NCBI GenBank assembly: GCA_030141605.1
Contig: JAQGDQ010000660.1
Span: 53,053 to 117,052, forward strand
DNA: 64,000 nt
Reading direction: 5' to 3'
Source: Tubiluchus corallicola
Lineage: Eukaryota > Animalia > Priapulida
The number at the start of each line of letters is the position of its first letter. Within the stretch, counting starts at the first letter, position 1. A model generated the notes under the pieces. It was not told the DNA's origin, did no database searches, and worked only from the letters and a program-made list of their open reading frames with translations. Of the stretch, positions 11,163 to 53,909 are shown in pieces. The position numbers were made by a program, and so were the translations under genes.

Positions 11163-11214
<52 letters not shown>

Positions 11215-20200: not shown

Positions 20201-21075
20201 CGATGTGTTTATGAAAATTAAAATTCAATCAATCAATGTGCTATTGCAGATGCTTGTTGAATTGTGGTATGAAAATGAATCCCAGTGAAGCTATGTCATT
20301 CCAAGTTGAGTGCATCAGCTGTAATTACTCGGATGCAAGCCTTGTAGAATCTCTCAATTACATTTGGGCTATTGAGCCGCTAGATATTGAAAACAAAGAT
20401 TTGATTGTTGATCCACATGATACAAGTGTGAGTGTCAACACTGATACTTTTGTCATCAAACCAGATGCACTTAAACAAGGCTATACCTATTTTGTAACAG
20501 TTAAAGGTAAGCGATCTCTTGTGTCATAACATCGTTTAGTCTTTTGCTGAATTACTGCTGTGTTTGCCTCTCTTTCTTTTATTTTATTATTCTGCCTGCC
20601 CAATGTCTGCATTTGACGTAATATGTATATGGTGATATGATGATCATCTCTTGTGATATTTTAGGAACTTCTCATCTCAGCAAAACTTTAACAAAACGAG
20701 AGCAGGGTGATCTAGAAGTAACTTTTGTATGCTGTTAATTTTACATCAAAGTTTTATGTATCATTTTAAACTATTTATTGTCTGTGCAAAATTCAATGTT
20801 TTTAGCTATTAAAAATAGTAGTTGTACCTTTTGGAGTCACCGCTTTTAGTGACAGTGACATGCAATTTAAACAAATATTTAATATTGTATACCTCCCGCT
20901 TCTCTCAGTCACAATGTACAAAATATGGAAGTAGATGTTTTTTAAGTCATGGATATGTATTGTAAGGAACTTTAATGTTTAGTATGCTGACTTGTTTATT
21001 TTGCATTATTGATGGCTTTATGTTTGTTTAACTTTAAAAAACTTATAGTTAACTTTTATTAATGTTATTATTATT

Positions 21076-21110
<35 letters not shown>

Positions 21111-24100
21111 TATTATTAATATTACATTTGTATAACTTTATACACCTCAGTGGGTTAGATAACGGTGCATTAATTAAGAATCAGTATATTGTATATAATG
21201 TGGATTTGAAGTGAGATTTTGAACATTTTCTATGTTAGGTAAAGCTAAAGGTTTTTTCTTATATTTCAGGTGGCCCTGGTGGTGATGCATGTGGAATTGC
21301 TTATTTCCAATTTACTGTAAATGAGGCTCCCAGAACCAATACCTGTACTCTATCACGCTCTGAAGGTAAATGTATTATATTGGTATTTTGACTGTGGTCT
21401 CACTTTCAAATGGCAGGAATTACCTCACTTTTTTACATCAGATGATCACTACTTAATCCTTGCAATTTTATAAATATTCCTTTTTTCCTTAATATATATG
21501 TGTATTGTATATCCGTAACTGATTGCTAGAGTTCTGGTGTGTGGCAAAATAAGTACATTAAATATGCATTTTGGATAGTTTTTTCAACAATATTAGTTAC
21601 ATTTTTGGTTTACTAGCTTGTGATATAACATTTTTTCACTACAAACAGATTTTTTCCCATGAAGCTGGTTTATTTTTTGTTCTCATTGTTCTTGTTCATG
21701 TGATAATTTTTTAATCAATTTTTATATTGTGACATCTTTAGAGTAACTTTGTTTCTGAATTTATACAATAAAACAGATCTATGGCAACAGTGAAAAATAG
21801 ATTCCATGGCATCGCTAAATTCTGTTGCAAACGTCACAATCAGACAGTTGGCAGGGCACAAGTTTAACACTGGTCCGCCCGGAAATTCGGTAAATCCACT
21901 CGAGAACATGCAGAAGTAGTCTGAAAACTGGTCCTATGGCCATTATACTAAGTTTGCTATGTTTATTATGTCTCCATATCAATCAAACCTTGTATCTTTT
22001 TCGAGTTGATACAAACAGTTAGCCAAGCCCATTTACACTAATTTGTAATGTTTTAGCATAGTTTAAATTAAAATAGTTGTCTAAAAATCATCTAAATGCC
22101 TTATCACATGTAGTTTTCACTCATGTGTTACTGCTGTCGTGTTAGTGGCATTCTCGCTGGCGCTTGTTGGAATTGAACCACGTCACTTACTCGCACACCA
22201 AACTATTTTAGAAAGGCATAAATATGAAATAAAACAAATGAAATACAAATATATTTGACTAAAATGTATGCAGATAACATTTCAATAGCTTTTGCATAGC
22301 ATTCAACTAGAAAATTGATTTTTGTTTGTTGAAAACTCTGCTGTATTCACTTCTTACGATGCCATTGGACACAATTACTTATCAACCGCACAGCATATGT
22401 GTACGAACAGCATAGCAACCAAAAATAAGTAAAAACAAAAAACAGTGTTGTTTGTGAGTTTTTTAGTAAAATAGTTAAATGAGGAATTTACTGTTAAGGT
22501 AAGCAACAAGTGAGCAACCCAATGCTTTGCATTCCAAACTATGATGGCAGGCTCATCATGACTGAGTGCTTTTTATGACTAGTGTGTAGTCACAATGAGT
22601 CCTGGGTACTGTCACTTGTAAACCTTAGCTGTTTACCTCAGGTTTATATGTCCAAACATGGTTGTAACACTTCAGGTGGTTTAGTGGCTCTTAGAGGTTC
22701 CTTGATAATAAGCCAGACTTTTGTCTTTCAACAAATTTATTGAATAGATCTTGCAGTTGAACCCTGATTTCTGGGTTGCAATATGGTGAAGTGTATTAAA
22801 AAATAGTCAGAATAGCATGGTGCATGCTTGGTTCTGGTGCAAGCACCAACTTACAAACATCATCCCTAGCATCTTTGCATTAACCCAATATAGTTTACAA
22901 AGTATCTTTTTGCGTAGGTGTATCATTCAAAGATGAATTTACAATAAACTGTGAAAGCTATATTGATGGTGACACACCACTTACTTATGAATTTTACTAC
23001 AGAACTTTGGAAAAACCTGGCAATGACATATCAGATGGTAAAACATTTTCAGCTGTTGTTATATCATGTGTTTTCATTATCTGACTCTGTCTGAGACTGT
23101 CTCCTTTTAATATTCATGAGCTTCAATTTCATATGTTGAAACCCATTGCTAGCGTAATATGTCTAATGCATCTTTCCTGCAGTCATATAGTCGTAGAGTA
23201 CATTTACTCAAGTAAAAAACTCGTTCATTTTTTTCCAGCAATACTTCTCTATTTTACTGACATAAAGTCTTCACTGCCTGCTACAAAACTGCCACCTGGA
23301 AACATTGATAGGAATTATGAAGCCGACATTATTGTGCGAGTTCTTGATATATATAAGACAAGTACATCACGTACATTCACAGTTCGTGTAAGTTCAATTA
23401 CATTTTTTGTGTACGGTACACACAGCATTACTTTGTTCACAGTGTCATTTTGAAACTATATTAATAATTTTGTGATTAGACTGTACATATTACTGTCAAA
23501 GGATTTGAACTTCTTATTTTGAAACACAATATTAGTTTTGTCTGGATACAAAATTAAACGAACATTTCATTTCACATTTTTATTACATTGTTCTGTTCTA
23601 GGTAACTCCTGCAGAAGAACCATTAGAGGCTCTTAGAAAGTTTGCAGTAACGAGAGACCCCAAGAAACCATGTGAACTAGATCAGCTAGTAGCTGCTGGC
23701 AATGCTAATGGTATTTAGATAAGAAAGTTATATAGATTACAGAATTTGCTTGAGTCTCCTTTCCTCTCTTCATTAGCCATTGCTTAATTGTTGTTATAAT
23801 CCATTGTTCAGAATTAGCTAGCAATTGATTTCTTGATGTTTTACACTGTTTTATCTGATTTTTAATCTAATCTCTCTGTCTGTGTTGATGTTACTGCTTT
23901 TCGTGCATTTTGAGTTTAGATTGCAGTTATAGACATTTTCTTTATCAAGGAATTTAAGCGAGTGATTTATTTTTTGCTAACAGTTATTACTAGTTTTGGC
24001 AGGCAGTCATTATTTTTTAGGTGACCGACCCATATTTGAGTTGCTAGTCCCAAAGAACTTAAAGATCTCACAACCTTTCACCTAAGATTTTCCAGTCCAT

Positions 24101-27100
24101 ATGATCATGAAATTATTTGAAACACTAGTACCCGCTAGCTAGTCAGTTTAAGCATTTAGTGCCTGTTCCGAACTTGGCACTGATGCTTCCATCACTGCCT
24201 TGTTTCATTGGCTGAAACACGTCAAACAAAATTACTACTGCAGGGCATACTAAGCAAATTAACGAGCATTTTTAATCGCTTTTTCTAGGTATTATAAATT
24301 TTGCTGCAACAGCAGTTAATACATTAAATGCTCCTAGAAGTGTGCCAGAGACAGCTGAGGAGGAAACTAAAAAGCAAGAGGAGGACAAAATTAGAACTGA
24401 GGTAATTGTTGCAAATGGAATTATATGTCTCTAGCTTTTCAATGCTTGGTTGTTTGGTGCGTACAGTGCTCGTACTATCAAATTGTTGAAGTGAAATAAG
24501 TGAATGATCATTAAATAATGAAATTTTTGACTTTTTCGGTTGGTCCAGTTTACTATTCTCATAGACATTTGCCTTCCTCTTTAATTATCAGATCAGCTAG
24601 CCAGAAATGTGCCTTTTGTTATTTTACTTTTTTGTTTCTTGATAACTAGTATAGACTCAGCTTAAATTAATTGTAAATAGTTTTTGTAAGTCAGCTAGTA
24701 AGTTGATTCATTGGGTCACCACGACTTCTAAACAAAATGTTACCATTGCTTGAAGTAAAATACTGTAATCAAATCTAATTAAACTAGGCCAAAAAACATT
24801 TGGCTGGTAAGGAATTAGTTACATTGCTTTGCAGGACACTGCGAAAAAGGAATACCATCTCCGAGCAGGCATAATTTTTGCAACTTTCATTGATGGAAAA
24901 ATTATGTAGCATTATTTTTTGAACATATACTTTTGTAAAATGGCAATTCTTAGAAATCATGCAATGGGTCCTGTTTTTTTTTGTATGTCTGTTTATACTA
25001 GAAATGTTGTGGACTGTTCCCAGCCTAACTTGTTGCAACATTTCTTAACTCGACTTTTTTGCAGGTTAGGTCTGCTTTAATTAAAGCACTTGAACAGTTG
25101 CCGGTGCACGGTTTTGCTTCAATGAAACAGTTAGCTGGGTTGCTTAATCAAGCAAGTCTTATCTTTGAAGAACTGACTTACGAAGCAAAGGTTAGTTATT
25201 TGATGCACTGTTTTGTCATTAAATAACCATTATAACTATAATATATGTTTAATTACTCGTAATAGATTCTGTGATTAGCAGCAAGCTTGAAGAGTTATAC
25301 TATTTTATATCCATAGTGTCCTGTACGCTACCTAACAACAATTGTCATGTGATCTTCCCGCAAGCTCTAGAAATATCCCTACAGAGAGTGGGTAGTTTTT
25401 CCGTATTTGAGATCTAAAATGCTATAATACAATAATGCAGGTCCGATAAATGAATGCATTAAAATCAGTATAGTGATTTTTCTGTGTAATTTTAATGCAG
25501 TAATGTATACTCAAATTCGGACATCGGGTAAATGCAGCATATTATTCAATTTTTAAGAGGCATTATACTTTCTCATACTTGAGGAACAATACAGTTTCTT
25601 TTGTTTTTCAATACGACAAAAATCAAAGATGGATTCGTGGATGTTTTTAACGAAGACTTCTACTGTTATCTACCTTACAAAACATATTTCGAAAGCCATT
25701 ATGGGTTTCTTCCTCGTGCAGTGCGTATGTGAGCTACGTGGCACACCTCGAAATGGAAGATTGTAGATGAGGCCTAACAAAAATACAAAAAGTGTTCTCC
25801 CCATGGCAGATTGCTGTGCACATGTAATTTGTCTGCTAAGTTTCAACAAAGATCTCAGGTATCAAAAGTGGTAAACAATTAGATTCAAGAAAAATATCTC
25901 AAGAGAGTTTGGAGGACTAGTGTAAGCTCCCCATAATTGAAGCATCATGATTGAAGATTAATTTAGCAACTTACATTGGAACCAGGGTCTACTTCTATAA
26001 GAAAATACTAAACTTAAAAGTAAATTAAAAAATTCAAAATTTGTTCTACACAACTGGATCTGTTAAAAATAAGTTTTATTATGCACATACAATTTTCATT
26101 AATTTTACTCTAACGATGGTTTTGTTCGAATTAGTTGAAAAATGATATATGTACATCTGTACGTACTTATTATATTATATGCTAACCTTAACTGTGTGAG
26201 CAGGAACATAACCATAGTAATCGTTTATTTCACACAGTATCATGCTATTAGAAAGATTCCTTTTCATGCTTTTTTAATAAAATGTGGAACATCTGATGAA
26301 AGAAAGCTGGACAAAATTGCTTAATCTTTTTGTTTAGATTTCACTTATAGATGCACTTTTAAAGATTGCAATGTTTATGAGTGATCTAACAGAATTTGCA
26401 GACTTGTCAGTTCTACAGGACACTATGAGGTAAGTTGTTAATTACACCCAGGTTTTCATATTTCATTGCCCATAATTGTTAACTACTTGAACTGTACAGT
26501 AAAGCAGCACCGATAACTTCATTGCTAACCCTGCGTTTAACTGTAGTACATGATTGTACATAGCTTCTCATTAGTCTTTCAATTTTTAAAGTTGGATGGT
26601 AAGTGAGAGAAATAGGCTTAGCATAAGGCATTGTATACCTTGCAGTTAATTCAAAATTGTAACACTTGTATACTGTGTTAGATGAATTTTTCTTATCATT
26701 TTTGTAACATAGTACTTTATCGCATTACTCACTATTTGTAAACATAATGGCATATTTGTTTTTTTTTACCTTATTTTACACGAACTTTTTAGCATGTTAA
26801 TTATGATTTCGGAAATAAATCAGATTTTTATGTTAAAGGTTTCTAGTTGCTGGTGCGGCGAAAGCATACGAGCCTCTTGTGAAGGACTATCGAATCGAAT
26901 TGCTTGGCTTAGAGACTAATGAATCATTAACTATAAAAGAAAATACAGATATTGCGGTAATTAGAAATCAGGTAATGTGATTTGATTGTTCCCATTTTCC
27001 ATTTTCATATTTTGTATCTCACAGGCGGATTTCTAATGGAATAAGAGAGGGGCGATCAGCACCCCAAACTTTCCAGCTAGGGGCCTGGATAGGGCTGTTT

Positions 27101-30100
27101 TTGTGTTTTTGCTATTCTTAATTTAAGTAATTTGTTATCTCACCACCCCTGCTATCTCAGATATTGTAGCGTTGATGGTCTAACATTCTAAGAGCTCTTT
27201 TCATACCATACAATTTTATATTAAAATTGAAATAGTAAACTAAAAGTGATTAAAAGTAATTTGATTTTATTGCCATTATCAACACAGCAAGCATACTAAC
27301 ACATTTCCATAATAAGTTCTAATGAATATTGCAAGTTTTTGAATTCATTACAGTTTTGCATACAGCAGTAATTCATATAAAATGAAATTTCCATACATAT
27401 AAGCTTAGCTTTATTGATCGTCTGCTTTTCTCGATAGTTGGTAGTTGTTACTGCACAGATTCATAGAAAGGTGGGGTGCCAAAAGCAATCACCTCCGGGT
27501 GCAAGGGTGAGAAGGTGCAAAATTCTTCTAGTTCAGTGACCCTTATTCATTGACATTATTTATTTATTATTAATTATTAATTATGAATCCAACATTAACA
27601 AAAGTTTTCAAATTGCATCAAAATTGCCTAGTCAGAAATCATTGTAGCCAACTTAATTACTACATACGGCCTACAAAAAAGGCTATTATTGTTACTTTCA
27701 TAACTTTGCATGTTTTTATGCTGGAGCAGAATGTTTAAAGGTTCTCATGTTATGAGCAACTTATATATAGAAAAGAGTTATTCTGGTGCAGTACCACAAA
27801 TCAAACTCTGGGCGATTCTTTGTTTTTTTTTGTTTGGAAATGTTTGTTTATCTTTTTCCCATCATGAAAAAGCAAAGTCAGACTCAGGGATGCAAAATAT
27901 GTGCACAATTTATGGCTTCATCCACGAAACAAATGATGAATACATTTAAGGAGCGCCAGAAGTTTTAATGTCCCCGGGTGCCACAAGCACTTGCTACACC
28001 ACTGTTAGTGAATTAAAAATTTTGTTTCAATCAAAAGCAATTTTATATGCTTCAAAATTTTTTAGGCAGAAGTTTTGGTGGAAAAACTATACAATTTAAC
28101 TGTTATTATCAGCTCTGCTGTTTTTCATCATATGTTTGATCAAGATAAGCCTCTCGAAGCAGAAACAGAGTTCATAACTATGCATTTTGAAAGACAGTCT
28201 CTTCTTCATTTGGGAGGTAATTGCTTTCTTTATTAATATTTGATTGACATGTATTATATTGATCTCCAACATTAGTGCATGATGTGCCACTGCATCTGTA
28301 ATTTTTTGTGAACAGTCCATGAATCACCTTAATGAGTGTTTTATGCCACACATTTCAACCTGGTAGCAAGGGGCTAAATTTATATAATAGTGTGAGAAAA
28401 TGTCATCTATTTATTTTATCACTTTTTCTTGTGTAAAGTATGGAATAAATCTTGAGTCATTTTTGTTGCTAGAATTAACAATCTTGGTTTTACTTCTGAG
28501 TAGTGGTCAACATTACCTTGTGTTGTTACCTTACACAATCTGCTTATTAAACTACTGAAATGAAATTCTATGTATATGCAGGTACAAGAATTGACTTAAA
28601 AAGAATCGGATATTTTATAATGCCATCTCTTTCGTCATTGTTGTTACTTGGGTCAGAGGTAACAGACATAATTAATGTAACGGTAAGAAAATAAATAATT
28701 TATGTATAAAAAATAATTCAAAATAAATTCTGGTATGAGAGAAGAATATTTGCACTTTCATTTATTGCAAGATTTTAAATTTTTTTAATGCTAACCAGTA
28801 CTTAATATGTATACTATATGTACTATATGTATGCATATATACTAGTCCAAACCTGTGTTTGTCATCACTAATTGATTCATTCAATCTTAACTATACAACA
28901 TTTGTATTTTTTGTTCATAAAGGCCACAAATGTTTAACATGAAGATTAAAAGTAAAAGTAATTTAAACAAAATTTAGACAAAACAAAGTGTCAAAAATGA
29001 AATGCTTAAATGTTAACATATTTTTGTCGTTTGATAATTTTACTTCGTTCTTGTAGTAAGTATAATCTTGCGATTATAATTTTTCAGAATAAGTTGTGTA
29101 ACCAAAAGTTTCTAATGATTATACTGAATATGTATATGTCATTGGTATATGTTTGCTTTTTTATTTTGTTTTTTTTGTAATGCAACCTTTATCCTTATTT
29201 CGTTTTTACCTTAGCTTTTTTGACATTTGACGTTGTCTTACTGCTTTTGCCACTTACTCTCCCCTAACACAATTCATAGAAAGGGTTTTGTCTATCCTAT
29301 TGCTTTGCTGTCATCTAATTTGTCTTAAGTAAATGGTATATCATTAGTTACAACAAAAACGTATATTGTGAAGGAAACAAATTAACTGACAAACTTTAAG
29401 TGTTACAAATAAAAAGTAAAATTGTTAACTCTAAAATAAGAAAGTACTACAAGACCTTAAATACTGCTTGTTCAATCAAGTGTAAAAACTTTTTTACAGG
29501 TTTTAAGTGTCGCTGCAAATCCAGTTGTTTGGGGTAATTCCTTCTATCAAGCTAATACACGTGTTGCAAAAGTACTGTTTCAGGACATAGCCAATAAGTC
29601 TAAAGAAGAAACAATACAGCTTGTACAACCATTTGAGTACATTTTAAATATATCAGGTATTTCTAACCTTTTGTATCTTCATGTAATGCCTTATTCTTTA
29701 TCTTGTTAATTGAGTTTTTAACTTCCACAGTTTGTGAGATGTTGTCTGTGTTTTAAAAAAATATTTTTATGACATTTCTTTGTGTTTATATTTTCAAATA
29801 ACAATGAAGCCAAACAATGTTTGCATGTCAGTCAGCTAACATGTTGTAGAGCACTAATTGACACAGTTATACATATAATTACTTGGTTGCACGAGTATAT
29901 TATGAATGTGCAAGTAAATTGTGCCAATTTAGCACTACAAGAAAAATGAAAACATATGTACATTTTAACAATGCTATTCAGTATTTAAGCTTTTATATCA
30001 AAATGCACAAGTATTATGACTATTGTACATTTTTTGCCAAAGTACTTTTTCATTTTACTGTTTCGTTTATACTAAAGCTTAGTAAATGGTGAACTTCTTC

Positions 30101-33100
30101 TTTAATAAGTAATGCCACTTTAACACAAAGTAGTTTCTTGTATTTTATGTGTTACCACTTATTGAATTGGCAATTGTTGAGTTCTATTTGGGTTTATTAC
30201 TACAACTAACATTTCTGTAAACATACTCATTGCGCATTCTCATTAATACAGGTTCAAATGTGTCTCAGGTTGATTCATATTTTCTTATAAGTCCATTTAA
30301 GCCCAGTGACAGAGACATTACTGTGCACAAATTTACTATGGATGCAGAAAGGAACACTAGTTTAACGTTTGACAATTTACCTCCTGATGTCACATTGAAG
30401 GTAAAGATCATTGTGTACATATGTTTTTCAAAACTGTGTTTTTTAGGTTCGCTTTAAAATTTCACCCACTAAAAGTAAATTCATATCAATTATTGTAGTT
30501 TAACAATATTACCAAAGTTGCACTATGAGACGCCAAATAATAAGCAGTTTTTATTGTAGGTTATATTTAAATGGAAAGATAGACCGGTACTTGAAGATTT
30601 TGCAGAAAAAATAAATTTATTTCGTATTCCTGTGTCTCGAAGTGAAGGTGTGACTAGTGATATTCCTTTGCATAGTATAAATCTCTACAATGATAGAACG
30701 ACAACATCTGATTTGTACATTGGAATAATGTTTGAATCCTACGGTGATGAGTTATGTGGCAAACCGACTAAACGTTGCAGGGAAAAAACAGAAACGTGCC
30801 AACTTAGTGGGAATAATAATACGTGCCAGACTATGGATCAGTGTATGTCCGGTCAACAGTGCTATGATGGTTGGGTAGAACACTGTGTTCAAATTTCTAC
30901 AAAGTGTGAGAAAGCCATGACTAAATGTAGTAAAGCAGCTGTACTTAAGTGTGGCACTTTTGATGATTGTTGCAGAAGCAGTTGCAATGCTACTGCAAAT
31001 CCACCAGAATGCGAGTCTCATTGTGACGAAATGCAAAAAAATTGTACAATGGCTGCCAATGGCACGTGTGTTAGTGTAGAAACTTGTATACAAAACTCTG
31101 ATGGTGCTTGTGTAGAGACAGTGAAGAATTATCGTTTAAATGAATACTGTTTAAGCTTTTACTACAATTGTTCACAGCAACTTGAAACCGCCTGCAAGAG
31201 CACACTTAGGAATTGCAAGAAATCATGTTCAAATAATTTATGCAAACCTGTTTGTGACACCGCGTTACTGGACGAGTGTTTGCAAATGTGTCAAAGCGAT
31301 GCATCTAAATGCAAATCGCCAGTTGTAAAACGTTGCAGAGAAGAAGCTGTGGAAGCTGACAGCATATGTAAAGAGGTGCTTGAAACCAAAACTCCTGAAA
31401 TTGCAACAAATGAGCAGAAAAAACCTTCTGATTTGGGTATGTTATATAATAAATAAAAGCACAACCTATTCATTAAAACAAGCTGTAGTGTCTTCATGCA
31501 AAATTTGTGCAGCAGCACAAAAAACTGGACATGTTAATTTTCCAATTTTATTTTTTTAATTCTATGGTTACTAAAATAAACATCTACAGAGTTCTTTGGA
31601 AACATTCCTCTGTCAGATTAGCTATTCAGAATATAAACTTGCAACAAACATCAAATGAAGACATTTTAAAAATTTTTAGTTGCACTTGTCAGTGTTAATG
31701 AAAAGCCAAGCTTCCTTATGAACAAATTTAGATTACAAAGTTCTTGATGAATTTTTGGTGGACATGAGATATGAAAATATTAGAAAATGCAAATATTACT
31801 AATTAGACGTCCAGCTTGCTTGTTTTACAATTGTGGAAATAATTTGAATAAATATGAATATACATAAGAAAATAACTTGAAGATCAGGAAAAGATTGCAT
31901 TAATTATCAAAACGAGTATATAAGAGATCTTCTAATACAATTAAACTGTGTTGACAGGCGAGATTGTTGATTACCACGTTGCCACCTATACTGCAAATCA
32001 ACCAGATAGTGAGACTTCGGCTAAGGTGTCTGTCATCCTTCATGGCTACCAAGACTCTGGAGAACTGAATCTCGACATCTCTAAGTTTGCCCGTGGATCG
32101 TAAGACATAATATTGTCTGCAAGAAGCTTCAATTACTTATCAGAAACTGTGCAGAAAACAACTATTTACTTTAAAATTCTTGCAGATAGTTTATCGGCTC
32201 TATCGTCTCCTACCATGAGCTCTCATGTCTTGTTTGAGAAAAACTCGTTGTTATTGTTGTTTGTTTACAAAAAAGGCTTGTCTTGTTCAATCAACTAGTC
32301 TCTGCTACATATTATATATCTTTAATTGCTTACATAGTGGGCTAGTTTCATGCATAGGTACAAGGTTTGCTTATAATATTTGCATCTGCTTTTAATACTT
32401 AGCTCTTCTGATGAAATTTTAATACTTATAATGGAATTTTTTGTAATTTAAGTAAATGATTATATTGCAGAACTGACACATTTGAATTTAAAATAGCATC
32501 AATAGGAATGGTATCGGCTGTTAGTATCTGGCATGACAATTCAGGTGGAGGAGCTGATTGGTTGCTGGATAAAGTACGTAATTTATGATTTCAATGCCTA
32601 ATAGTGTTTAGCATCAAATACCTATATTCGAACAAATATTGTGATTCAAAATTCAGTTTGAACTTAGAAAATGTCTGACCAAACAAATTTGAATTATTTG
32701 ATAAAAAATAAAAAGTAATAGTTCAGTTTGTAATGCTACTTTCTGTAATAATAGCTTGTTACCAGTCTAAACAGTTTACGTTTTCTGCCCTCTTGTGTGA
32801 CTTCCATTTTTAAACTTCTTTTTGCAGTAGTTTACATTCATCTAAAACTATTGCATGGGAAATGCAGCATTACTTTCAAACTTGAAGGTGGGACAGTGGC
32901 TTGTTGATATTGCAACTGTAAATGTTAAAGCAAAATGTAAAATAAAAGTTCATTTGAAATTAATGAGAAATAACAAGACAATATTTATATATATAGTAGT
33001 GCAGCTGATGAAATTACAGTATGATGACTGACAATAATTTACAGTATCTTAAGCACCTTTTTTTGCTTTTTACGTAAAATTTCCAAAAATTATCTTTCTG

Positions 33101-36100
33101 TAGACTTAATTCAGGTATGGGTAGGACAAACATTCATACCTCTCATTTTACAAGTTCCTGGTTTTGGCAAATATTGTAGAATGTATGTGTATAGAATATT
33201 GTGTAATATTTTACAAAGGAAAACAGCATAATTTTTCATACCTTACCCCATTTTAAAGTATAGTAAAAGTATACAGTAAAATTCAACACCTATAATATTA
33301 CCAAAGTACTTCTATTAAATAAATAATAGTAACAACATCACGACAGAACATAACTTTCAGCAGAACAATCATTCCATGAGCACATTGCATGTGTTTTGTC
33401 GGAAGCAAAAATTGAAGCACAGTTATATCTATAAATATTCAGGGTTGTTTGCAAAACCTCGCAAATTGTACGCTTAAAATTCAAATTTAAAGTTTACCAC
33501 TGTGCTCATGCATGGGCTCTCAAACATGTGTACTGAACTCCTCTGAACTGAGAGGTACAGCATCTGTTGTTTGCATCGCATTTCCCAGTTGCAGGCATTA
33601 GTGATTATCTAACTAGCAAATGACGAAATGCATGTAACAGCAAAGTACTAACTGCATGAACATGAAATTATAGTTTTGTGGTAATAAAATATTCTCGTAA
33701 GTCATTTTTGGAAAAATAGTGTTCTCTTTCAATATTTTGTAAGATAGATTGTTTTAAGCTATAATTTAAAATGTGATTTTTGAATAGCAATAGATGGATA
33801 TACAATGTATTTGCATTAATAAAAAAAGTTTCGCTAGTTAGTATGGTTTATGTCTTTTCTTGTTGTTTTTTTAATCTTTATATTCAGGTGGCAGTATATA
33901 AAGGTTACCTGCAGTTCACCTGTCCTTGCAGGACATGGCTACGGGGCAGTGTCAATGAGAATCTACAGAAAATTCCTTGCTTCCTTAGTGCTAATACCAC
34001 ACCTACAGGTAATATAGAAATGTGGTTAAGTAGTTCTCATTAGATGCTTTTGAAAATGCTGAAATTCCTGTGATAAGTTTATGTGGACATTTATAGTGAA
34101 GTGCTAGACTGATGCAAATCTAGATGTTTTTTTTGCGTTAGAGCTAAGACTTGTTAGTTTTTGTCTTATGATTTTTTTGAGAGTGTAGTGCTGCCTTTAA
34201 GTTCTTATTGACTTCATAATTTTTCTAATGATCAGTCTAGATATAGTTCCATCATCAGGTACATGATTTGTACATGTTTGTGTTTATACATTTATGCGTT
34301 TTATGATTTGTGCTTCATCATTTGAGACCACTAATTATATTGCTAATTAAATACTGATGGCAATAATAAAAATTGGGTTGGTGATGCTGCTGCTGCTGAT
34401 GATGATGATGGTGATGGCGATGACGTCCACGACAATGATTGACAGTGATGATAATGAAGAGGAGGAAGAGAGGGAGGATGAATCATTGGTCAAAGCATGA
34501 AACTGCATGATGATTGGACCTAGCATGGGTGGTCCTAAGTTTGCTATGATGTGCTCAATAAGGGTGACAATACATGACACCAACGAATTCCATTGGTTGC
34601 ACTGCTCAGTAAATTTTTGTAATTTGGTTTCCAAGAAAAACAGTTCGAAGTTTGCAGGAAAGTACTGGTTTAACAGCAATTTTATTAGCTATAAAGAGAG
34701 CTCAAGCTTGAAAGGACAGGGACTTATATGGAGATAAGGCTTTGATTTTATGATTTCTACCTACCAAGAATAATGAACAACACAGTTGTGTGCCCATTGG
34801 GGTAGTGTGGCATCTTTGAGGTACTTGCTACAGTGACATCTTTGAACTATTGTAATGAGTAGAATGCAAAACTAAAGGCATGATTGTGTCAATATGAGAT
34901 TGATTTTTATCCTAATAGCTCGAACAAATTGCTGATTAAATATACGAAAGAGCTAGGCTCTAGAAATTAAAGTTGTTTATTAGATGTAGACGATCGTTTC
35001 AACAGCAACTGTCATTTTCAATGCTATAAATCAAACCACATCAATTAATAACCAACCTAACCAAGAGATACAATAAATTGCATCATTACACAATGACAAG
35101 AGTGAAATTCAAATTGGCAGGATACGATTAGAAATAAGTTAGAAACAGGTTCTCGTGTAAAGAAAACTGTATCAAATCCAAAAGAAGTACTTTATATATC
35201 AGATTCAGGCAAAGAGATGTTCTTAATTATTTGGTGTTATCTTTGCCAAAATCTGATATACAAGGTACTATTTTTATGCTTTCTTTACAGTTTCCTTTAC
35301 ACGAGAACCTCTTTCCAACTTATTTCTCGTTGTATTCTGTCAATTTGAATTCCATTCTTGTGATTGTATAATGATACAGTTTATTGTGTGCATTGGTTAG
35401 TAGTGTCATAACTGAACTGATTTATATTTTCCTTGATTTATTACTTTGAAAATGACAGTTGCTGTCCATCTGTGTTGATAAACAATATGCTGAATTGCTG
35501 ATTTTTTTCTTTTCAGTGATATGTACTTGGTGCGTATTTAGACAGATTTGTTATAACACACATAATAGCAGATTGTGCAATTACATACATGCAATACTTT
35601 TTTTACTTGCCTTTAGTTTTTAGATGGCAGACAAAAAAAATCACAGTGGTCACCATAGCAATGCCACTTACCAATGCCCAGTCTGATGTGCTTTTAGAAC
35701 CTACGACAGGACAATGTACATAACAGGCTGTGTGTTACACACACTACAGCAACCTATTGTTCAAGCTAAGCTGCAGCTTGGTGGTGCATGAAATAATACA
35801 CATTTTTTACAAATTTTATTAGCGCACAATAATTTCATGTTCAAAATTTGCACAAGTATCATATTCCAGTTGGATATTTCATTGGCCTTTTAAAGATGTT
35901 GTCTGTTATTGTTTAAGTATTCAGATAATTTACTACTTGAGAAAAATGCTGACCCACAGTGGAAACTGTTTCTTTTATAATATAAACACCGTAAAACACT
36001 CAATTACTTTGCTCATAACACACAAAGCCTAAAAAGAGCTTGACATTAAATGTGATAATTACAAAATTTAAGACCCACACTCACTAAATCCATTGGCTGC

Positions 36101-39100
36101 TTTTATGAGGAAATACTCTTTAATAGGATTAACGAATATTGTGTATAAAGTGAAATTTCTCAACGGCCAACAAGTAATCCGGCACTATAATGAAACTTGT
36201 AATTGCACTCTTTGCAGTCTCATGATTAGTAAGAATAATGAATATTAGAAATTAAATAATACTACTGATGAATTATATGAGGTGACCATATTGTCTACTG
36301 CTAGATGGTTTTTCTTCTTAGGAAAAAAGAAAATGTTTGTAAATAGGTATTAGCGAATAGCTAAAATACAATTTTTTTGCAGAGCCACCACAAATTAAGC
36401 GTGTAAATTTTACCCTGTATTTTACTCAATTCCAATGTATCTACTGGAATGAATCCGGTGCATGGTCAGACAAAGGATGCTTGGTAATGACATTCGTTAC
36501 AAAAATTTTACATTTAGTGAGCATTTATTTTCTTTTCCAAAATAACTAGGATGGTTCATAAAAATGTAATTTGATTTCAAGATCCATGGTAACTTCAAAA
36601 CTTTGAAAAAATCCTTTGTAAAGAAAATGACTGTTTACAACTGATGGAAAATGTAGCTACTTTTCCTGCTATTTTATGAAAAATACAAAAATGAAATTAC
36701 AGATCATGAAATGACATAACATGCCAAGAAATCTGAAGTTATTTTTATAGTAAACTTTACGTCAAAGATTGCTAGTATTAATAACTTCCTGTAGGCAAAC
36801 TGTCATTGTTGGCTTCTTCCAAGATTAAACAAATGTTATCTGAGATGATTGTCGAGTAGTATGTTGTACAGCTTTCCCTGTAAGTTAGTTTTCAGTCATT
36901 TATGAGATAAAAGGTTAATTAAAGTAGAGTTACTGTTGGCTTATATGTCATGTCTTGACCATGTTCATACGTTACATCTTTTGATGGATTTTGCTGTTTT
37001 TAATTTATTTAAGATGTAAGTTAAAAAATAATATAATAATATAACAATCTTTACACATTTCTCACCAATAAAATACTATTTCATAACAACTATGATTTAT
37101 AAAAAATAATCCATTGTAATAAGTATGTTTAGTTGTATAAATGCTTAATACAATTCAATTTTTCTTTATTTCTCCAAAAGAGATAACTTGAAAAATAAAA
37201 AAACTAATAACCTACCGTGTGTTACTTAGGTTGGACCTTACAGATCTGCCCATCAGCTTCACTGTCAATGCTCTCACATGACATTATTTGGCGGTTTTGT
37301 GTATGACATGCCAAATCAGCTTCTTCCTCCATTGGCAAAACTTGTTCGAGGGTTTTTTGCTAATGGTCTTGTGCTTCTAGTGGTACTGGTAACCTGGATG
37401 ATTTTTTTCGTTCTTACACCTTATCTAAGCAGAATGGACGAAGAAGATGTTTTGCAGGTACATCATCACGATGCAATTAAGTGAAGTACTTGCTTGTCAC
37501 ATGTTTGTAAAATTTCTTCATTTCATTTTCTCAGCAATTTATTATTATACTAATTTTTATATATAAACCTATGATTAACGTTTCCGATCGATGATATTTT
37601 TTAACAGTAGGTAATGTCTTTTTTTCAAATATCATTCATTTTCACATGCCATGGATAATTGTTACAGATATTATTACAACACGCAGTTTTAGTTTACATT
37701 TCATCTGACATAGGTGGAGCTGTCATGTAAGTGAGCCTATCTTGTAATTTTAAAACACGTAACACTTTTGTAAAAAATGAAACGATTGTTTTTGTTAGTA
37801 TGTTTGTTTAATTAAAACTTTAATAAATCCTTACTCCCTAATTCACAAAAACATGGTCGGCTAAATGCGTCATTATTATCACGGATTTCTGAAGAGATAC
37901 AGGAAAAACAGCTTGCATTTATTACTCATCACATGATCTGTTTAATTTAATTGGTGAAGTGACATTTATTAAAAGAAATATTGTGAGAGTTTGAAAAATA
38001 TGGTAAATGATTGAAAATTTAATAAGCAAAAATGAAAAAAATAGGTACAACATTAAATTTTATTGGTGCTCAAATGTCTCGTACCAGAGTGTCCCATGCC
38101 CAAATGTTCTGTGACCAAGTGTCTCGTGTTCAAGTGTGCCCATGCCCAAACGTCCTGTGCCCAACACACATGTCACATACTAAAAGAAATAATATACTTG
38201 CATTTTTCTTATTATAATTAATTTATAGATTGAATAAACTTACACTTCTATTAACAGAGTAGCATGGTCATACTGGGAGATAACAGTCCACTTGACACTG
38301 GTGCCTATGTAATCACAGCATACACTGGACAGAAAATTGGTTCTGGTACGACATCACGAGTTACTGTTATTCTGAAAGGTATTTCTCGTTTGAACTATTT
38401 AATGGCGATTAGTTTTGCACAAAATTTAAAAAGACCCATCATCATCAGATACAGCCTTCTTTCAATAAATACATACAACACTTTGACATTTTTATTGCTA
38501 TTCCTGAGAAAATTTATTTATTTACGAAAAATGTCATTTTCTCAATGACTACTGAATCATTTGTGACAAATCCACGTCAAACAAACCATCTCAGTGTGTG
38601 GCTTTCCATTGGGGCTTTGTTTCCGATTAGAGGCCACGTTTCTATCAAAATTTCAGGACAGCAATGATTAAGCTGAAATTATTACAATGGTACCCTTAGC
38701 TTATTATTGTACTACAAGAAAAAGAAACCCCAGTTTTGCCTGCGTAACATTTTGCAACAGATATAACAATATGGAACATATGTCTTTGTCTAAGTCTTTC
38801 ACTAAGTTTGGGTGAAAGAACTTCAGTCCTATCGATTGTTGATTCGGTTTGCGAAAATGGTCTGCAAAACTGGAAAATTCGGCAAAAAGTGCTGAACCAC
38901 CAAGGCAATGACAGTTTCATTCTTCATATTATTGAGTATGATCTGTATTTAGATGATAAGATCAATTCTTCCTGAACACACATCATGCATTCTGCTTTAT
39001 GTACCTATGGCAGTGTTTGATACACAATGCACGATACACGAATGACTGCTATTCAATACACGAATGTAATGAAAGAAAATTAAGACATTTCCTATAATAT

Positions 39101-42100
39101 AGGATTGAAACAAATGCAAATTTGGAAAAGAATATTTTCCTACCAACTCTCTAATCGCATTAGAAATGTGGCTGCACATTCTGAAACCAGACACATGTGC
39201 AGACTGTTATATAAATCTTTGCATATGCGACGGCATAATCAGCTGCAAATTTACAAAATTTTAGGATGTAAAATAAAGGAGCTAATTGGGTTTATTAATA
39301 ATTTAGTCGGTGGTTTGTTTTTATTTATTTAAGTAGTAGATACATGTAGAAGCTGAAGAAAGTAGACGATACATACGTGTAGGTGATGCAAAAGTAGATG
39401 TAGATTAGAAATAGATGCCCCAAAACTGACCCATGATGTTTGACTCACTTTAAGGCCTGCTACCAGAACAACAAAGTTGGTGTAATGCTTCATATTTGTA
39501 TTTACCATTCAATGCTATATCTGTATTTTTATAGGTAGCAAGGGAAGCAGTTTCCCAACTATTTTGTACAGCAAAGAAAGAATAACTATGCAGAGAGGAG
39601 GTAAGGATTTGTTTTTAATGACAACAGCTTATCCTCTTGGAGATCTGACGGCATGTGAGATATGGCATGATAATCGAGGAGAAAGTCCTTCATGGTAAGA
39701 GCTTATTATGTGTAAAATATGAAATCTTATGAATGTATAAGCAAGAATTTTTGTGTCTGAGAGGGTTTAACTTTTTCACAAGAAGGAACTCGAGAAAATT
39801 GTAAGAATTGCCAGCAAGCTGCATTGTCACTGATTAGTGTATGAGTGTATTATTTCCCGCATCTTTAATATAAATCGAAATATCGCAAATTTGGCAGTTA
39901 TTTTTACTGTGAAATATCTAATTTTTCTGGATAGGTTTATAAAATTATATTTTTTAATACTTCCATCTCTTACGTTATGATCATGCTTAACATTCAAGTG
40001 ATGACAAATGTCACAATGTTATGCATGTTGTGTGAGGTATTTTCTCTTTTAATAGTTCTGAATTCTTCAATCATTATAACTTTCAGGTTTCTGAGTGAGT
40101 TAATTGTAAGAGATATAGTTGCAAATGAAACCTGGTTTTTTGTGTATAACAACTGGTTAGGAGCTGACAAAGGTCCCAGGACATATTACTTTGAGCTAAC
40201 GCCAGTATCGGAAGAAGAACTTAGGGTGTGTAATGTTATCCTTTTTCATCATTGATTTGCTATTTTGGTGTTTACTGTGTTTAATTTAGAATATAATTTC
40301 CATGCCATTCAGTTAGCTCCGCTTTTGAAACAGTAATTTCTAAAACTAAATTTTTGCAGCAATTCCGGAATCTGTTTGTAAGTTACTTTCGGAAACATAT
40401 GAGTGACAGCAATTTGTGGACAGGTCTGCTTTGGAAGCCTCCTGAGAGTACTTTTACTCGTGTTGAGGTGGGCGGTTGTAAACTACATTATATTTGCTTG
40501 CATTACTTATTCCAATTTTGTACCAAGTGTTTATGCGAAGACAATAGTATATAAACACTTGTGCTGTTCAATTATGTATAATTCAAGGTTTGGTATGGTG
40601 CATGTTAAAAAGCTAGTTATTAATGCTTTTGTGTGTGTTTACAAGATTGTCTGTGAAGGATAAGTGAAAATTAACAATATTTTATGTGTGATTATGTACA
40701 ATAATTGTAATTGTTATATTCTGTGTTGTTTTATGCATACTAACTTTTTTCTTTTTTGAATGTTTACACTAACTATTCCTTGTTATATTTTGTGGCTGCA
40801 TTTTTTATCGTACAAAATAAAAGAAGAACGATAATAATGATTTGCCTCAGATAGTAATCACTGATTAGTACCACTTGTATGAAAATCAGCTGCCTTTTTT
40901 CTTTAGCTTTTCTTGTTAGTTATACCTGGTTTCTTACATCGATTTTTCTGGTTTTCGTTTGCAGAGATTAGCTTGTGCTGTGTGTCTCTTAACTCACGCA
41001 ATGTTCTTTAACATCTTCTTCCATGGCTGGCCTAGTACTGATCCGGCTGATCAGTTTAAAGTTGACAAAATACGACTTACGCCAACAACAGTTATAATAG
41101 GTAATGGTTTAGTACTCTGCCTACATCATTAAGATCTCAGACATAAACTCATTTGTTCATGTGCAGATGTTTTGCTTAAACTATCGAGCTGTTTTGCTTG
41201 AAAACCATTGCTTTGAAATATTTTAACAGACTGTTAGGTAGATAGATAAATAGACAGATAGATGTTGCTTTACTTTTCACTTAAACCTACATAAATACAC
41301 TTTATGAAACTGAAAAGGAAAAATTTGTTGACAATATTTGATTCAGACTGATTATCCTTTCTTTGCCGATCTCATGTTTTAACACACATTTAACAAAATT
41401 AAAATAAACTATGTCAACTGGTGGTATCTCAAATTTAAAACGTAAATTTCTTGTGCCTCTGACATTGCTATTAACTATGTTGGGAAATGGTGTTTTTTTT
41501 CAATACACAAACAGCATACAGTATAAAAATAAAGGTCTATAACATAATAATGATCTTTCAGGTAAAACTATAAATTATTTTCCTGGGCTCAGTCCCGGCT
41601 TTTTTGTGTTTCCTTTCTTTTCTGACAACTTGGTATTTGCTCTTTTGCTTCATATGCTTTTGTTATTGCTGTTACATATTTAAATGGTTTTTCTTTGTCT
41701 TTTCAGGTATTATTTCAGGTGCTATTTCAATTGTCACCAGCTTCATTATTGTACTGCTTTTCCGCTTATCAGAAAATCGACCCTTTTTTAGCACCTGGAA
41801 AATGAAAGGGTGAGATTGTGTAGTTACTGCATAGTTAAATCAAGAATGTACATATCTGAAAATTGTCTATCCACCTTGAATTTTGATGTCAATTCACTTC
41901 TGTCGCTCAACTATTATTATTCACTCTCATTTTATAGTGATGTTATATTATACAAGCAGATATAAGTCTCTATAACAAATAGAGACTATTTATTATGCAT
42001 TATGTGTAATATAAAAAATGGTTTGCAAAAAATCAATACAGTACGTGCATACTTGTCTATTTGGTGTAAAATATAATTTCTTCTACTTCTTACAGAATTG

Positions 42101-45100
42101 TGAAAGTGAGCAGAATTGTCCAAAATATGCGGAAAGGAAAAAGAGAGATGGTAAGTGGTACTTGCTTAAAAACATAAATAAGAAAATTGGATGTTGTTTT
42201 TAATTTCCATTTAATTAAGCATTTAAGTTCATGACTAAGAAACGTGTGTGTTCACATGCTTATACATCACCATGTACTTCACTATTTTATACTATCCAAG
42301 ATGCAAATGCATTTTACTTTCATGATCTATGAGAAATCTTTATCAGCAATATTTTTTGTGTTTTGTAATGTTGGCTTTACAGGTTGATGTTCTTGGTGTT
42401 TTTTCTTTTTTTTTGATTATTTTGCTTTATTAATTGTAAAATTATGCATTAAAAGTGTTCTGGTGGAGGAGCTTTATCTGATGATTTGCTGACTACCAGC
42501 ATGCAGTTAACTCAAGAAAAACAGCACAGTTTTGGATGCACTGGCACTCAAAGGTCGTAGTTATGCTTTAATCATGCGCATAAAATAAATTTATATTGCT
42601 TCCTTGTATATATGTTTGTGTTTTTTGATGTTTATTTTTAGCCCCTCCCACTTTTTACTGATGAATCTGAATGGCTGACTTGGATTAAAGAGAGCAGAAA
42701 AGATGAGAATACTTACCTGAAGCAAATGACAAAACAAATGAAGGAGGTACAGGCGGCAGTACGTAAACTAACGAGACAATTTAAGCCATCGGATCGTCAG
42801 AAATTTCTCAAGTCTTTCTTGCAAGATAAAAAGGCTAAGAAACCTGCTAGAGGTAAAAGAGATGCTACTTCTGTTGCTGAAGCAGAAGGAGATGGGGAGG
42901 AAGAAGCTGAACAAGTAAAGCAGTTTAAGCTGCCATGGTGGTGTACAAATATAGCTTGGACACTAATGATTTGCTCCTCCTTAACAGCATCTGTTTTAAC
43001 TATTATAATTGGCATCAGATACAGCTACTCACGAAGCTTTATTTGGTTATTCTCTCTTGTTGCCTCATTTCTTCTGAGTTTTCTTGTTTTTGAGCCACTT
43101 AAGGTGCTAATTTTGACTATCATTGCTTCTGCTTACATCAAGAAACCCATAGAACTTGAGGACCAACCAACAGATATACAAGTAAAGGATGAGCAAGGTC
43201 TTACAGCATTCTCGGAAAAGGAAGGTCGCAGGTTTGTAGGCAATGCAGTTTTGTTTTTAATTTACACAGCGAAATGTGCAGTTCTTGTGTTATTGTGACT
43301 AGTTCTGTTAAATATAACATCTAACGGCATTTTCTTTTGCTCTGAGCTTAGTACTTAGCAGAATTTATTTATTAAGTTCTTATCAGATCTACTTTTATTC
43401 TAAGACCTGGCCATTCAGCTGCAGCTGTTTTACGTAAATATATATTACAGAAAAGCGACATGGCTAACAATTTACTTCCAATTTAAGTATTATATTGGTA
43501 TCAACAAAACATTATTTATTGCACTGCTGAATAGTTTATAGTAAGTCTTGAAGCTACCATTTAATTTGGTTAAAAAAATCAGTATTTTCAATTACAGGAA
43601 TACTTGGTGCCGACATAAGCCAACACAAGAGGAAATTGATAAAGCAAGAGAAATTGCTGATGCGATACAAAGAAAACAAGATTTACTCAAAGATATCATT
43701 TTACTTACTTCCTACACTCTTGCTTTGGTTTTCTTACTGTTTGTTGTATTTGATCCCAGGTATGTGCGTAATAATACTTTTCTAAGTTAAATCTATTCTA
43801 TTTACCTATGAGGTTTACTAACATTCTTCAGTCTGGCCAAAGCTACCAGTGTCGTATTCTCAGATTAAAATTGAAATATATTTATCAAAGCTAGCAAGAA
43901 GGAAAAATTAGTAAAGAAAATTACTCGTAGACCATATAAGACCATACAGATTATAAGTATAAAACATTTTAAAACTGTACAAGTTTATTGACAAAAATGA
44001 GGACAGTATGTATAGTCAGATATAAATATTTTGCAGCTTCTGGTATTTGGACTGTAAGAAACAGACATGAGCGTCATTAGCTACGAAGTTAGATGTAGCT
44101 AATGTTTGAATCCCTCCAGCTGTTTTAATGATTTTTTTGGACTTAATTATGATAAATTTTGCCCCACCTTTCAAGTTTTTACATCAGCTAGAGGCTGAAT
44201 ATACCTAGTATGGTTTACGGTTAAACAAGACTATGTAATTCTGTGCGTGTCTGAGAGGGTGAGGGTGTATGTGTGTGTGGGGGGGTTGGGTGTGTGTGTG
44301 TTATGGTTTTAAAACTACATCTAATTTTGTAGGTGTTTCCAGATATCTCAAATGGTCGAGGCTGTTCTACTACATTCCCATACCTACACAAAATTTATTG
44401 AAGTAAGTAATTATGAAAGGAAGAATATATTTGCCTTTGTAAATAATTATGAAAAGAATATAGTTGCAATTGAATGCCTGTTACTGTTTAATTGCCTTAA
44501 CAAAACATTAATAGCCAAAAATTGCCAAATTATTATAAATTCTCATGAATACATTGAGACAAGGTGTTATCATAAATGCTCAATATCAAGGTTTTATGCC
44601 TAAAAAGATTCTGGTGGAAAATCATGAATGTCAGTATTGTGCAAAATTAGAAGCACAAGATCGGATGCTTTTCCTCGTATATTACTTGGTACCTACATAA
44701 TATGACATGATAATCCGGCACATGTCAAGCTGGTTTTACTAAATTGTTCCTGTGTTGCATTGATTAGAAGAGAAGATTTCACCAGTATGTGGACATTGCA
44801 AATATTTTATTAATTTATGTAGTGCGTAAATTTTACTTCTGATCTTAATGCACAAAAATGTGCTCGTTTGATCCCTGCTGCTTTTATTACTGTATAATTT
44901 TTATTGTTTAAATAATATAAATATTATTGTAATTTGTAATGTGTTATCATTGTATTGCCACTTCATTTTGAAATTGGTGCAGTAAGGACCAATTGGTCAG
45001 AATTGGTGTAGCGAAGATTAACTGGTCAGAATTGGTGCAGTGAAGCTAAATGGTCAGAATTGGTGCAGTGAAGATAAAATGGTGAAATAACCTTTAACAA

Positions 45101-53800: not shown

Positions 53801-53909
53801 GAAAATGAATTGTAACAGAACTACATTAGTATACTATAGCATTATATAGTTAGAGAAAAAATTCCAAATATAATTACAAAAATTTAAGTAGTATATTAAG
53901 TATATTAAT

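What the first reader, a model, noticed from the sequence alone, without database searches (positions are those of the whole stretch)
31958..34008. A second, extracellular PLAT domain inserted inside the GAIN domain of a polycystin-1
Seen: three exons splice into a complete PLAT domain (FARGSTDTF, IWHDNSGGGADWLLDKV, FTCPCRTWL) located before the GPS motif and TM1, while the normal PLAT is still present after TM1 (38258-40225). Established: polycystin-1 family proteins carry a single cytoplasmic PLAT in the TM1-TM2 loop, and PLAT domains bind lipids/Ca2+ or partner proteins. Inference: this protein has PLAT domains on both sides of the membrane; the outer one would stay on the N-terminal fragment after GPS cleavage, right next to the tethered stalk, and could couple lipid or membrane binding to channel activation. 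I do not know of a described polycystin with this architecture.
Basis: partly seen in the sequence, partly recalled or inferred. Interest (0 to 1): 0.88.

Follow-up and report, generated by a model that had tools for sequence, protein, structure and literature searches.

The report
Polycystin-1 with extra outer PLAT module
An animal relative of the kidney-disease protein polycystin-1 has three extra exons for a second PLAT domain, a module that this family normally keeps inside the cell; they lie just before the self-cleavage site, so the domain would sit outside the cell and likely act as a binding arm, but splicing and function are untested.

Summary
Observation confirmed. A 43-exon, 3,037-residue polycystin-1-like gene model reads without a stop. 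Exons 31958-32099, 32471-32573 and 33888-34008 encode a complete PLAT (69 bits; 2,000 shuffles at most 6.7) before the GPS and the first membrane helix; the usual PLAT follows TM1. None of 151 fetched GPS-plus-PLAT proteins has this order. Refinements: (1) a folded homolog places the site not in the GAIN core but in the last hairpin of a jelly-roll subdomain inserted into GAIN; (2) the PLAT follows an unidentified 235-residue, 31-cysteine block in the same loop (378 residues; homologs median 42, maximum 98); (3) the cassette is flanked by phase-1 introns, so it can be wholly included or wholly skipped in frame, and it looks imported, not copied from the inner PLAT (not statistically settled). 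No RNA over the cassette was available, and its first acceptor is the gene's weakest. Coupling of lipid binding to channel activation is untested. Verdict: new variant of a known kind.

The parts
1846..13606 (+). Seven N-terminal exons: C-type-lectin-like and WSC-like modules; all seven end in phase 1. Gene start and signal peptide not found in the window
   Evidence: Pfam WSC 43.7 bits, weak Lectin_C and WSC hits
15929..23387 (+). PKD/REJ region exons
   Evidence: Pfam PKD and REJ, both weak; blastp to REJ regions of homologs
23602..29656 (+). GAIN subdomain A helices and first strands of subdomain B
   Evidence: profile of homolog regions upstream of GPS, 59.7 bits for this stretch plus the front of the jelly roll
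30252..30730 (+). Front part of the jelly-roll subdomain inserted in GAIN (two exons, 30252-30400 and 30560-30730), ending in the strand LYIGIM
   Evidence: aligned to homolog P0064, whose fold shows a beta-sandwich at model residues 138-341; inferred for the window's protein by homology
30731..31436 (+). Unidentified cysteine-rich block, 235 residues, 31 cysteines, 5 N-glycosylation sequons, predicted mostly helical
   Evidence: no family, homolog or structure match; fold of low confidence, pLDDT 46
31958..32099 (+). Outer PLAT exon 1 (phase 1 to 2); weakest acceptor of the scored set, with a CTAAT branch-point-like word 26 bases upstream
32471..32573 (+). Outer PLAT exon 2 (phase 2 to 0), holds the HDNSG motif
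33888..34008 (+). Outer PLAT exon 3 (phase 0 to 1), three cysteines, strong splice sites
36383..36483 (+). Last jelly-roll strand running into the first half of the GPS
37230..37457 (+). Second half of GPS (H-M-T at about 37275-37283 in place of H-L-T), stalk and TM1
38258..40225 (+). Normal cytoplasmic PLAT, three exons, flanked by phase-0 introns, internal introns at other places than in the outer PLAT
40360..48216 (+). TM2-TM11, TOP and channel domain, stop codon
   Evidence: Pfam PKD_channel 83.8 bits, Polycystin_dom 76.9 bits; open model

Best explanation
The gene is an intact polycystin-1-like gene that likely gained, by exon shuffling, a three-exon PLAT cassette which is probably spliced into at least part of the transcripts and would place a second PLAT outside the cell. 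The cassette and a cysteine-rich block before it fill a surface hairpin of a jelly-roll subdomain that is itself inserted in GAIN, so the predicted nesting is GAIN, then jelly roll, then cysteine-rich block plus PLAT, and the GAIN core should still fold (inferred from a homolog model). After GPS cleavage (inferred; H-M-T rather than H-L-T) the arm would stay on the N-terminal fragment. Most likely working: it is a membrane-proximal binding arm for a lipid surface or a protein partner; because the strand that follows it runs directly into the first GPS strand, a pull on the arm would load the GAIN fold near the buried stalk and could tune receptor-channel activation (inferred, untested, about 0.3 on its own). 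Shown: exons, frame, domain identity, order, rarity in the sample. Inferred: splicing, topology, cleavage, origin, ligand, force coupling.
For: Complete PLAT in an open 43-exon model. Codon use of the 122 codons matches the gene's coding blocks (0.19; 16 held-out coding blocks -0.13 to 0.24; intron samples mean -0.14, 0.1% of 2,000 as high) and a stop-free run of this length has p about 2e-4 at intron composition. Only all-in or all-out keeps the frame; the six partial skips all give stops. Five of the six splice sites score within the range of the gene's other sites, and the exon-3 acceptor and donor rank 1 of 275 AG and 2 of 283 GT in 31437-36382. No start codon lies in the open frame before exon 1. 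Homolog P0064 folds with pLDDT 83: GAIN match Z 13-15.5 (rmsd about 3, 156-173 aligned) and a separate sandwich at 138-341 whose loop 251-333 is disordered; the window's insert maps to that loop. Outer PLAT scores 83 bits against LOXHD1-type and 46 against polycystin-type profiles, the inner 92 and 103; polycystin PLATs plus the inner form a 99/100 and a 98/92 group without the outer. Phase 1-1 flanks as for the gene's N-terminal modules, the class typical of shuffled extracellular modules (PMC8001218, passages). A relative, P0122 (88% identical), runs across the 45741/47171 junction on a 1,372-base contig, shorter than that intron, so a close relative is likely transcribed and spliced.
Against: No transcript over the cassette was seen. 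The acceptor at 31958 scores below all 36 other scored acceptors and ranks 134 of 275 local AG sites; two donors are in the lowest fifth. Skipping is in frame. An intact frame also fits a recent, unused insertion. The outer domain keeps 20 of 32 consensus residues against a median of 27 in 251 reference PLATs (inner 24), and changes G12, A17, G18 and the common D20 of the first loop. It sits on a long branch, and AU tests do not reject grouping it with the inner PLAT (p 0.40) or with polycystin PLATs (p 0.51). The fold is of a homolog, not of this protein. H-M-T occurs once against 53 H-L-T in a crude pattern count of homologs. P0122 could also come from a relative that lost that intron, and it says nothing about the cassette.
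Confidence: 0.62

Rival explanations
1. The cassette is a regulated, mostly skipped alternative module: most transcripts join 31436 to 36383, and a minor isoform carries the outer PLAT.
For: Symmetric phase 1-1 flanks and in-frame skipping; weak first acceptor and modest internal donors; strong acceptor at 36383 (9.5, above 24 of 36).
Against: Joint skipping of three exons needs coordination, since each partial skip shifts the frame; exon 3 has very strong sites. The constitutive set also holds an acceptor as low as -0.5.
Confidence: 0.2
2. The three exons are a recently captured, unused piece of another PLAT gene lying in the intron, never part of the protein.
For: Non-polycystin character of the domain; weak first acceptor; dispersed repeats and a 464-base palindrome in the same introns; no RNA support.
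Against: The piece begins and ends at the domain borders, in the phase that fits the host intron, on the host strand, with no stop; codon use fits the host; no long terminal repeats bracket the cassette. Whether a near-identical donor exists could not be tested, as no genome is held.
Confidence: 0.08
3. The PLAT is included but serves only as a spacer or a protein-docking surface with no effect on the stalk or on channel gating, or it ends a secreted short form (read-through of the 34008 donor stops 11 codons later).
For: The host loop is long and low in complexity in some homologs, so it tolerates passengers; first-loop consensus partly lost; read-through stop at 34041 and AATAAA at 34365.
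Against: The 34008 donor is strong; AATAAA is common in AT-rich introns; HDNSG and the core aromatic residues are kept.
Confidence: 0.08
4. Assembly artefact that placed exons of another locus here.
For: No single contig of run X1 bridges 31436-31958 or 34008-36383.
Against: Exact phase fit at both ends; an X1 contig of 785 bases covers 31818-32604, both first exons and their intron, with one other letter and a two-base gap, though X1 may be the source data.
Confidence: 0.02

Closest known systems
Polycystin-1 family (human PKD1, PKD1L1-3, PKDREJ; sea urchin SpREJ3-6; invertebrate PKD1L2-like proteins)
   Same: Lectin/WSC-like modules, PKD/REJ, GAIN/GPS, about 11 membrane segments, PLAT after TM1, TOP and channel domain. 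Best matches are lancelet, acorn-worm and cnidarian proteins at about 30-37% identity in GPS-PLAT.
   Different: A second PLAT and a 31-cysteine block before the GPS. PMC1934368 (passages) states that the PLAT domain of this family is always intracellular, right after TM1. 0 of 151 fetched proteins show a PLAT before their first TM.
LOXHD1-type PLAT repeats
   Same: Nearest sequence match of the outer domain: all 15 best blastp hits, 32-38% identity; 83 bits against their profile.
   Different: LOXHD1 proteins are arrays of 14-17 PLATs without GPS. The match is distant, the branch long; only LOXHD1 and polycystin PLATs were in the comparison, so the true donor may be neither.
Adhesion-GPCR GAIN domains (CD97, BAI3, GPR126, latrophilin-3)
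   Same: The homolog model matches them at Z 13-15.5; GPS as strands 9-13 of subdomain B (PMC9672506, passages).
   Different: Only about 165 of 392 model residues align; the polycystin homolog carries an extra jelly roll (Z 6.5-7.8 to collagen-binding/PPC, GOLD and SIDT domains, middling scores) that hosts the insert.
Extracellular or secreted PLAT domains (lipase C-terminal domains and clostridial alpha-toxin, recalled; signal-peptide-bearing mite TuPLAT10, bioRxiv 10.64898/2026.05.13.724795, passages)
   Same: PLAT folds can work outside the cytosol as lipid- or partner-binding modules.
   Different: None is part of a GAIN receptor-channel; no sequence comparison with lipase or toxin PLATs was made here.

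Membership tests
Polycystin-1 (PKD1-like) family | GPS motif just before TM1 | tested here: met
   Pfam GPS 21.9 bits on the half motif; own profile 48 bits; four cysteines kept
Polycystin-1 (PKD1-like) family | PLAT between TM1 and TM2 | tested here: met
   94 bits; groups with polycystin PLATs at 99/100
Polycystin-1 (PKD1-like) family | About 11 membrane segments ending in a polycystin channel domain | tested here: met
   hydropathy scan; Pfam PKD_channel and Polycystin_dom above cut-off
Polycystin-1 (PKD1-like) family | REJ and GAIN upstream of GPS | tested here: met
   blastp to REJ regions E 1e-30 and profile 59.7 bits; Pfam REJ weak on a single exon
Polycystin-1 (PKD1-like) family | Autoproteolysis at H-L-T/S | tested here: inconclusive
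   H-M-T here; 1 such against 53 H-L-T in a crude count; cleavage itself not testable
Polycystin-1 (PKD1-like) family | Channel complex with a PKD2-type subunit | not testable with these tools
   no partner gene in the window; no genome held
PLAT/LH2 domain (outer copy) | Full-length profile match with core Y, T, G, F, HD, W, W residues | tested here: met
   69 bits, positions 3-109 of 121; 20 of 32 consensus residues
PLAT/LH2 domain (outer copy) | Eight-stranded beta-sandwich fold | not tested
   the spliced domain was not folded; inferred from the profile match
PLAT/LH2 domain (outer copy) | Calcium- or lipid-binding loops | tested here: inconclusive
   HDNSG kept, first loop altered; which residues bind calcium is recalled, the primary paper was not held
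Polycystin-type PLAT (copy of the inner domain) | Scores and groups with polycystin PLATs; shares intron positions with the inner copy | tested here: inconclusive
   46 against 83 bits, outside the 99/100 group, other intron positions, no DNA similarity; but AU p 0.40 and 0.51 do not reject
Class 1-1 shuffled module | Phase-1 introns at both domain borders | tested here: met
   31436/31958 and 34008/36383 are both phase 1

The most novel reading that the evidence does not exclude
A polycystin receptor-channel with PLAT domains on both sides of the membrane: an imported, splice-switchable arm (new cysteine-rich fold plus PLAT) nested three levels deep in GAIN grips an outside lipid surface or opposing membrane and pulls on the strand that leads into the GPS, so that alternative splicing sets whether lipid contact can unmask the tethered stalk.
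Probability: 0.2. Interest if true: 0.8.

Novelty: new variant of a known kind. Interest (0 to 1): 0.52.

Why it matters
It is a counter-example to the stated rule that polycystin PLAT domains are always cytoplasmic. It also marks a natural, tolerant graft site next to the GPS: a hairpin of a jelly-roll subdomain inside the polycystin GAIN, for which the PDB sequence search showed no solved polycystin structure. If the mapping holds in vertebrate PKD1-like proteins (not tested), handles or tags placed there would let one pull on the GAIN fold and test force-driven stalk exposure, an open question for polycystin-1 (PMC9672506, passages; PMC9171645, abstract). The cysteine-rich block may be an unnamed domain. 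Limits: one gene of one unnamed animal, known parts, no transcript and no function.

Tried and rejected
RNA: no RNA holder listed. X1 behaves as DNA (contigs run through introns, no splice joints) and X2 touches only repeats; neither bears on splicing. No genome held. Cysteine-rich exon: no homolog among longer proteins (only 512-2000 residues searched, so full-length relatives were out of reach), none in PDB sequences, Pfam or metagenome contigs; single-sequence fold pLDDT 46, Foldseek no match at E 0.001; the Atlas did not hold it. Two apparent counter-examples were set aside: P0099 and P0135 have an extra PLAT, but each follows an earlier GPS or GPS remnant and a membrane helix, so they look like fused tandem gene models. 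A weak PLAT hit at 51708-51848 (12 bits) lies antisense to a reverse-transcriptase frame and was taken as chance. The first loop-length measure had an unsafe end correction and was redone (121 of 135 homologs with a matched motif were measurable, 14 not). The large-tree AU test did not finish; the reported test used 16 LOXHD1 and 15 polycystin PLATs of 139 and 112. Foldseek on the homolog model ranked unrelated capsid proteins first at rmsd about 20, with BAI3 GAIN at rank 13; only the VIA-align result was used. An odd/even cysteine argument (31 plus 3) and a lipase-like terminal disulfide were considered and dropped: a similar cysteine pair occurs in 21 of 112 cytoplasmic polycystin PLATs and 13 of 139 LOXHD1 PLATs. 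Literature: ten full-text searches found no polycystin with two PLATs; subscription journals and supplements were not seen, and no InterPro architecture query was possible.
Full report
1. The gene. The + strand of the window (about 33% G+C) holds an intron-rich animal gene. I placed exons by hand from the sequence and checked them by script: 43 exons from 1846 to 48216, all with AG/GT ends, give 3,037 residues with no internal stop. Order: lectin-like and WSC-like modules, PKD/REJ, GAIN, GPS, TM1, PLAT, further membrane segments, TOP and channel domain. The start and signal peptide were not found, and small 5' exons may be missing. The organism is not known; best named matches are lancelet, acorn-worm and cnidarian polycystins at low identity.

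2. The observation. Exons 31958-32099, 32471-32573 and 33888-34008 join in phases 1-2-0-1 and add 122 residues between the exon ending at 31436 and the one starting at 36383. A PLAT profile built from 225 domains of fetched proteins finds two domains in the model, 69.2 and 94.1 bits; 2,000 shuffles of the outer one reach 6.7 bits. No hydrophobic segment precedes residue 1984, and 22 sequons lie before TM1 against 3 after it, so the outer domain would be extracellular. Of eight include/skip patterns only all-in and all-out are open.

3. Is it used? Direct evidence is lacking: no RNA holder was listed and the two laid runs show no splice joints. Indirect evidence for use: coding-like codon use and no stop in 122 codons; exact fit of domain borders and phases; strong sites on exon 3. 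Against: the first acceptor scores -1.0, below all 36 other scored acceptors (lowest -0.5), although a CTAAT word lies 26 bases upstream. A 390-residue protein from an unnamed 1,372-base contig, 88% identical, crosses the last splice junction; this suggests that a close relative transcribes the gene, and says nothing on the cassette.

4. Where it sits. A profile of homolog regions upstream of GPS aligns the window's protein up to the strand LYIGIM and again from the strand before the GPS. Between them lie 378 residues (glycine of that strand to first GPS cysteine), or 256 without the PLAT; 121 measurable homologs have median 42 and at most 98. I folded the matching 392 residues of the acorn-worm homolog P0064 with a 38-row alignment: pLDDT 82.6, pTM 0.77, one disordered loop at about 251-333. 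VIA-align matches the model to adhesion-GPCR GAIN domains (Z 12.6-15.5, about 165 residues aligned) and, separately, residues 138-341 to jelly-roll sandwiches such as collagenase collagen-binding/PPC, GOLD and SIDT domains (Z 6.5-7.8, a middling range that names no family). The loop lies between the last two strands of that sandwich, and the strand after it continues into the first GPS strand (334-347). Atlas clusters with the same features are unnamed eukaryotic fragments, some with GPS. So 'inside the GAIN domain' is true in sequence, but the core strands are not broken. This is inferred by homology; the window's spliced protein was not folded.

5. The companion block. The same loop holds 235 residues with 31 cysteines, many spaced by 3, 6 or 7 residues, and five sequons. 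It matched nothing, and its fold is unreliable. It is as unusual as the PLAT.

6. Origin. The outer PLAT is 34% identical to the inner over 85 residues, with no DNA similarity and other intron positions; it is flanked by phase-1 introns, the inner by phase-0. It scores 83 bits against LOXHD1-type and 46 against polycystin-type profiles; the inner scores 92 and 103. Trees put the inner within polycystin PLATs (98/92 with 81 rows; 99/100 with 33 rows) and the outer outside, on a long branch; AU tests do not reject the alternatives (p 0.40, 0.51). Phase 1-1 is the class of shuffled extracellular modules (PMC8001218, passages). Import from another PLAT gene is the likelier reading, not a proven one; only two PLAT kinds were compared.

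7. How rare. Among 267 stored proteins, 151 have a GPS followed by PLAT, 143 of them with at least 250 residues before the GPS. Two have a further upstream PLAT, each behind an earlier GPS or GPS remnant and membrane helix. None has a PLAT before its first TM. The sample is biased to molluscs, rotifers and deuterostome invertebrates, holds isoforms, and has no full-length close ortholog. Ten paper searches found no such architecture; PMC1934368 (passages) says the family's PLAT is always intracellular. Other papers seen: PMC8740744, PMC13197933, PMC4890752, PMC4810088, PMC3321182, PMC9672506, PMC6423614, PMC12716839 and bioRxiv 10.64898/2026.05.13.724795 as passages; PMC9171645 as abstract and outline. 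No supplements were read; domain diagrams there could hold a precedent. The scan's notes held no such case; an unchecked note reports SRCR modules nested in a MAM domain, a like event in another family.

8. How it likely works. GPS cleavage leaves two associated fragments, and the stalk can act as a tethered agonist in polycystin-1 (PMC9672506, passages; PMC9171645, abstract). Here the site reads H-M-T; cleavage is plausible but not shown. The arm would stay on the N-terminal fragment, one strand away from the GPS. PLAT domains bind membranes or proteins, and some bind stretched membranes more tightly while others do not (PMC8740744, passages). The outer domain keeps HDNSG and the core but has altered its first loop. 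I commit to a binding arm that can load GAIN; the ligand and the coupling are guesses (about 0.3), the included extracellular module is likelier (about 0.8 for at least some transcripts).

9. Verdict. Real, intact, apparently undescribed architecture from known parts plus one unknown block; one gene, no transcript, no function. New variant of a known kind; interest 0.52.

Noticed in passing
window 30731-31436: A 235-residue block with 31 cysteines in the same GAIN-side loop; no match in any library tried; possibly an unnamed disulfide-rich helical domain.
   Followed up: partly
window 30252-30730 and 36383-36430; homolog P0064 model 138-341: Invertebrate polycystin-1-like proteins appear to carry a jelly-roll subdomain inside GAIN that Pfam does not annotate in the seven homologs scanned.
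   Followed up: partly
homologs P0013-P0031: In several mollusc and annelid homologs the same loop holds an R-x-K/R-R word, a possible furin site (recalled motif), which fits an exposed loop.
   Followed up: no
window 35002-35465: A 464-base imperfect palindrome (74% arm match) in the intron after the cassette, likely a small foldback transposon.
   Followed up: partly
window 33000-33750: A dispersed repeat in the intron between PLAT exons 2 and 3, with very high depth in run X1.
   Followed up: no
window 51501-53825 (- strand): A 773-codon open frame with a reverse-transcriptase domain (RVT_1, 130 bits), likely a LINE; smaller frames at 50205-50642 and 54588-55521 look like decayed pieces by eye but gave no Pfam hit.
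   Followed up: partly
window 5497-5811 and 6729-7019: Two phase 1-1 exons with WSC-like cysteine patterns by eye but no Pfam hit: divergent modules.
   Followed up: partly
stored proteins P0099 and P0135: Database entries that look like fused tandem polycystin gene models; they would mislead an architecture query for two PLATs.
   Followed up: yes
window 34009-34043: Read-through of the last cassette donor ends after 11 codons; a secreted short form ending in the outer PLAT is possible but unsupported.
   Followed up: partly
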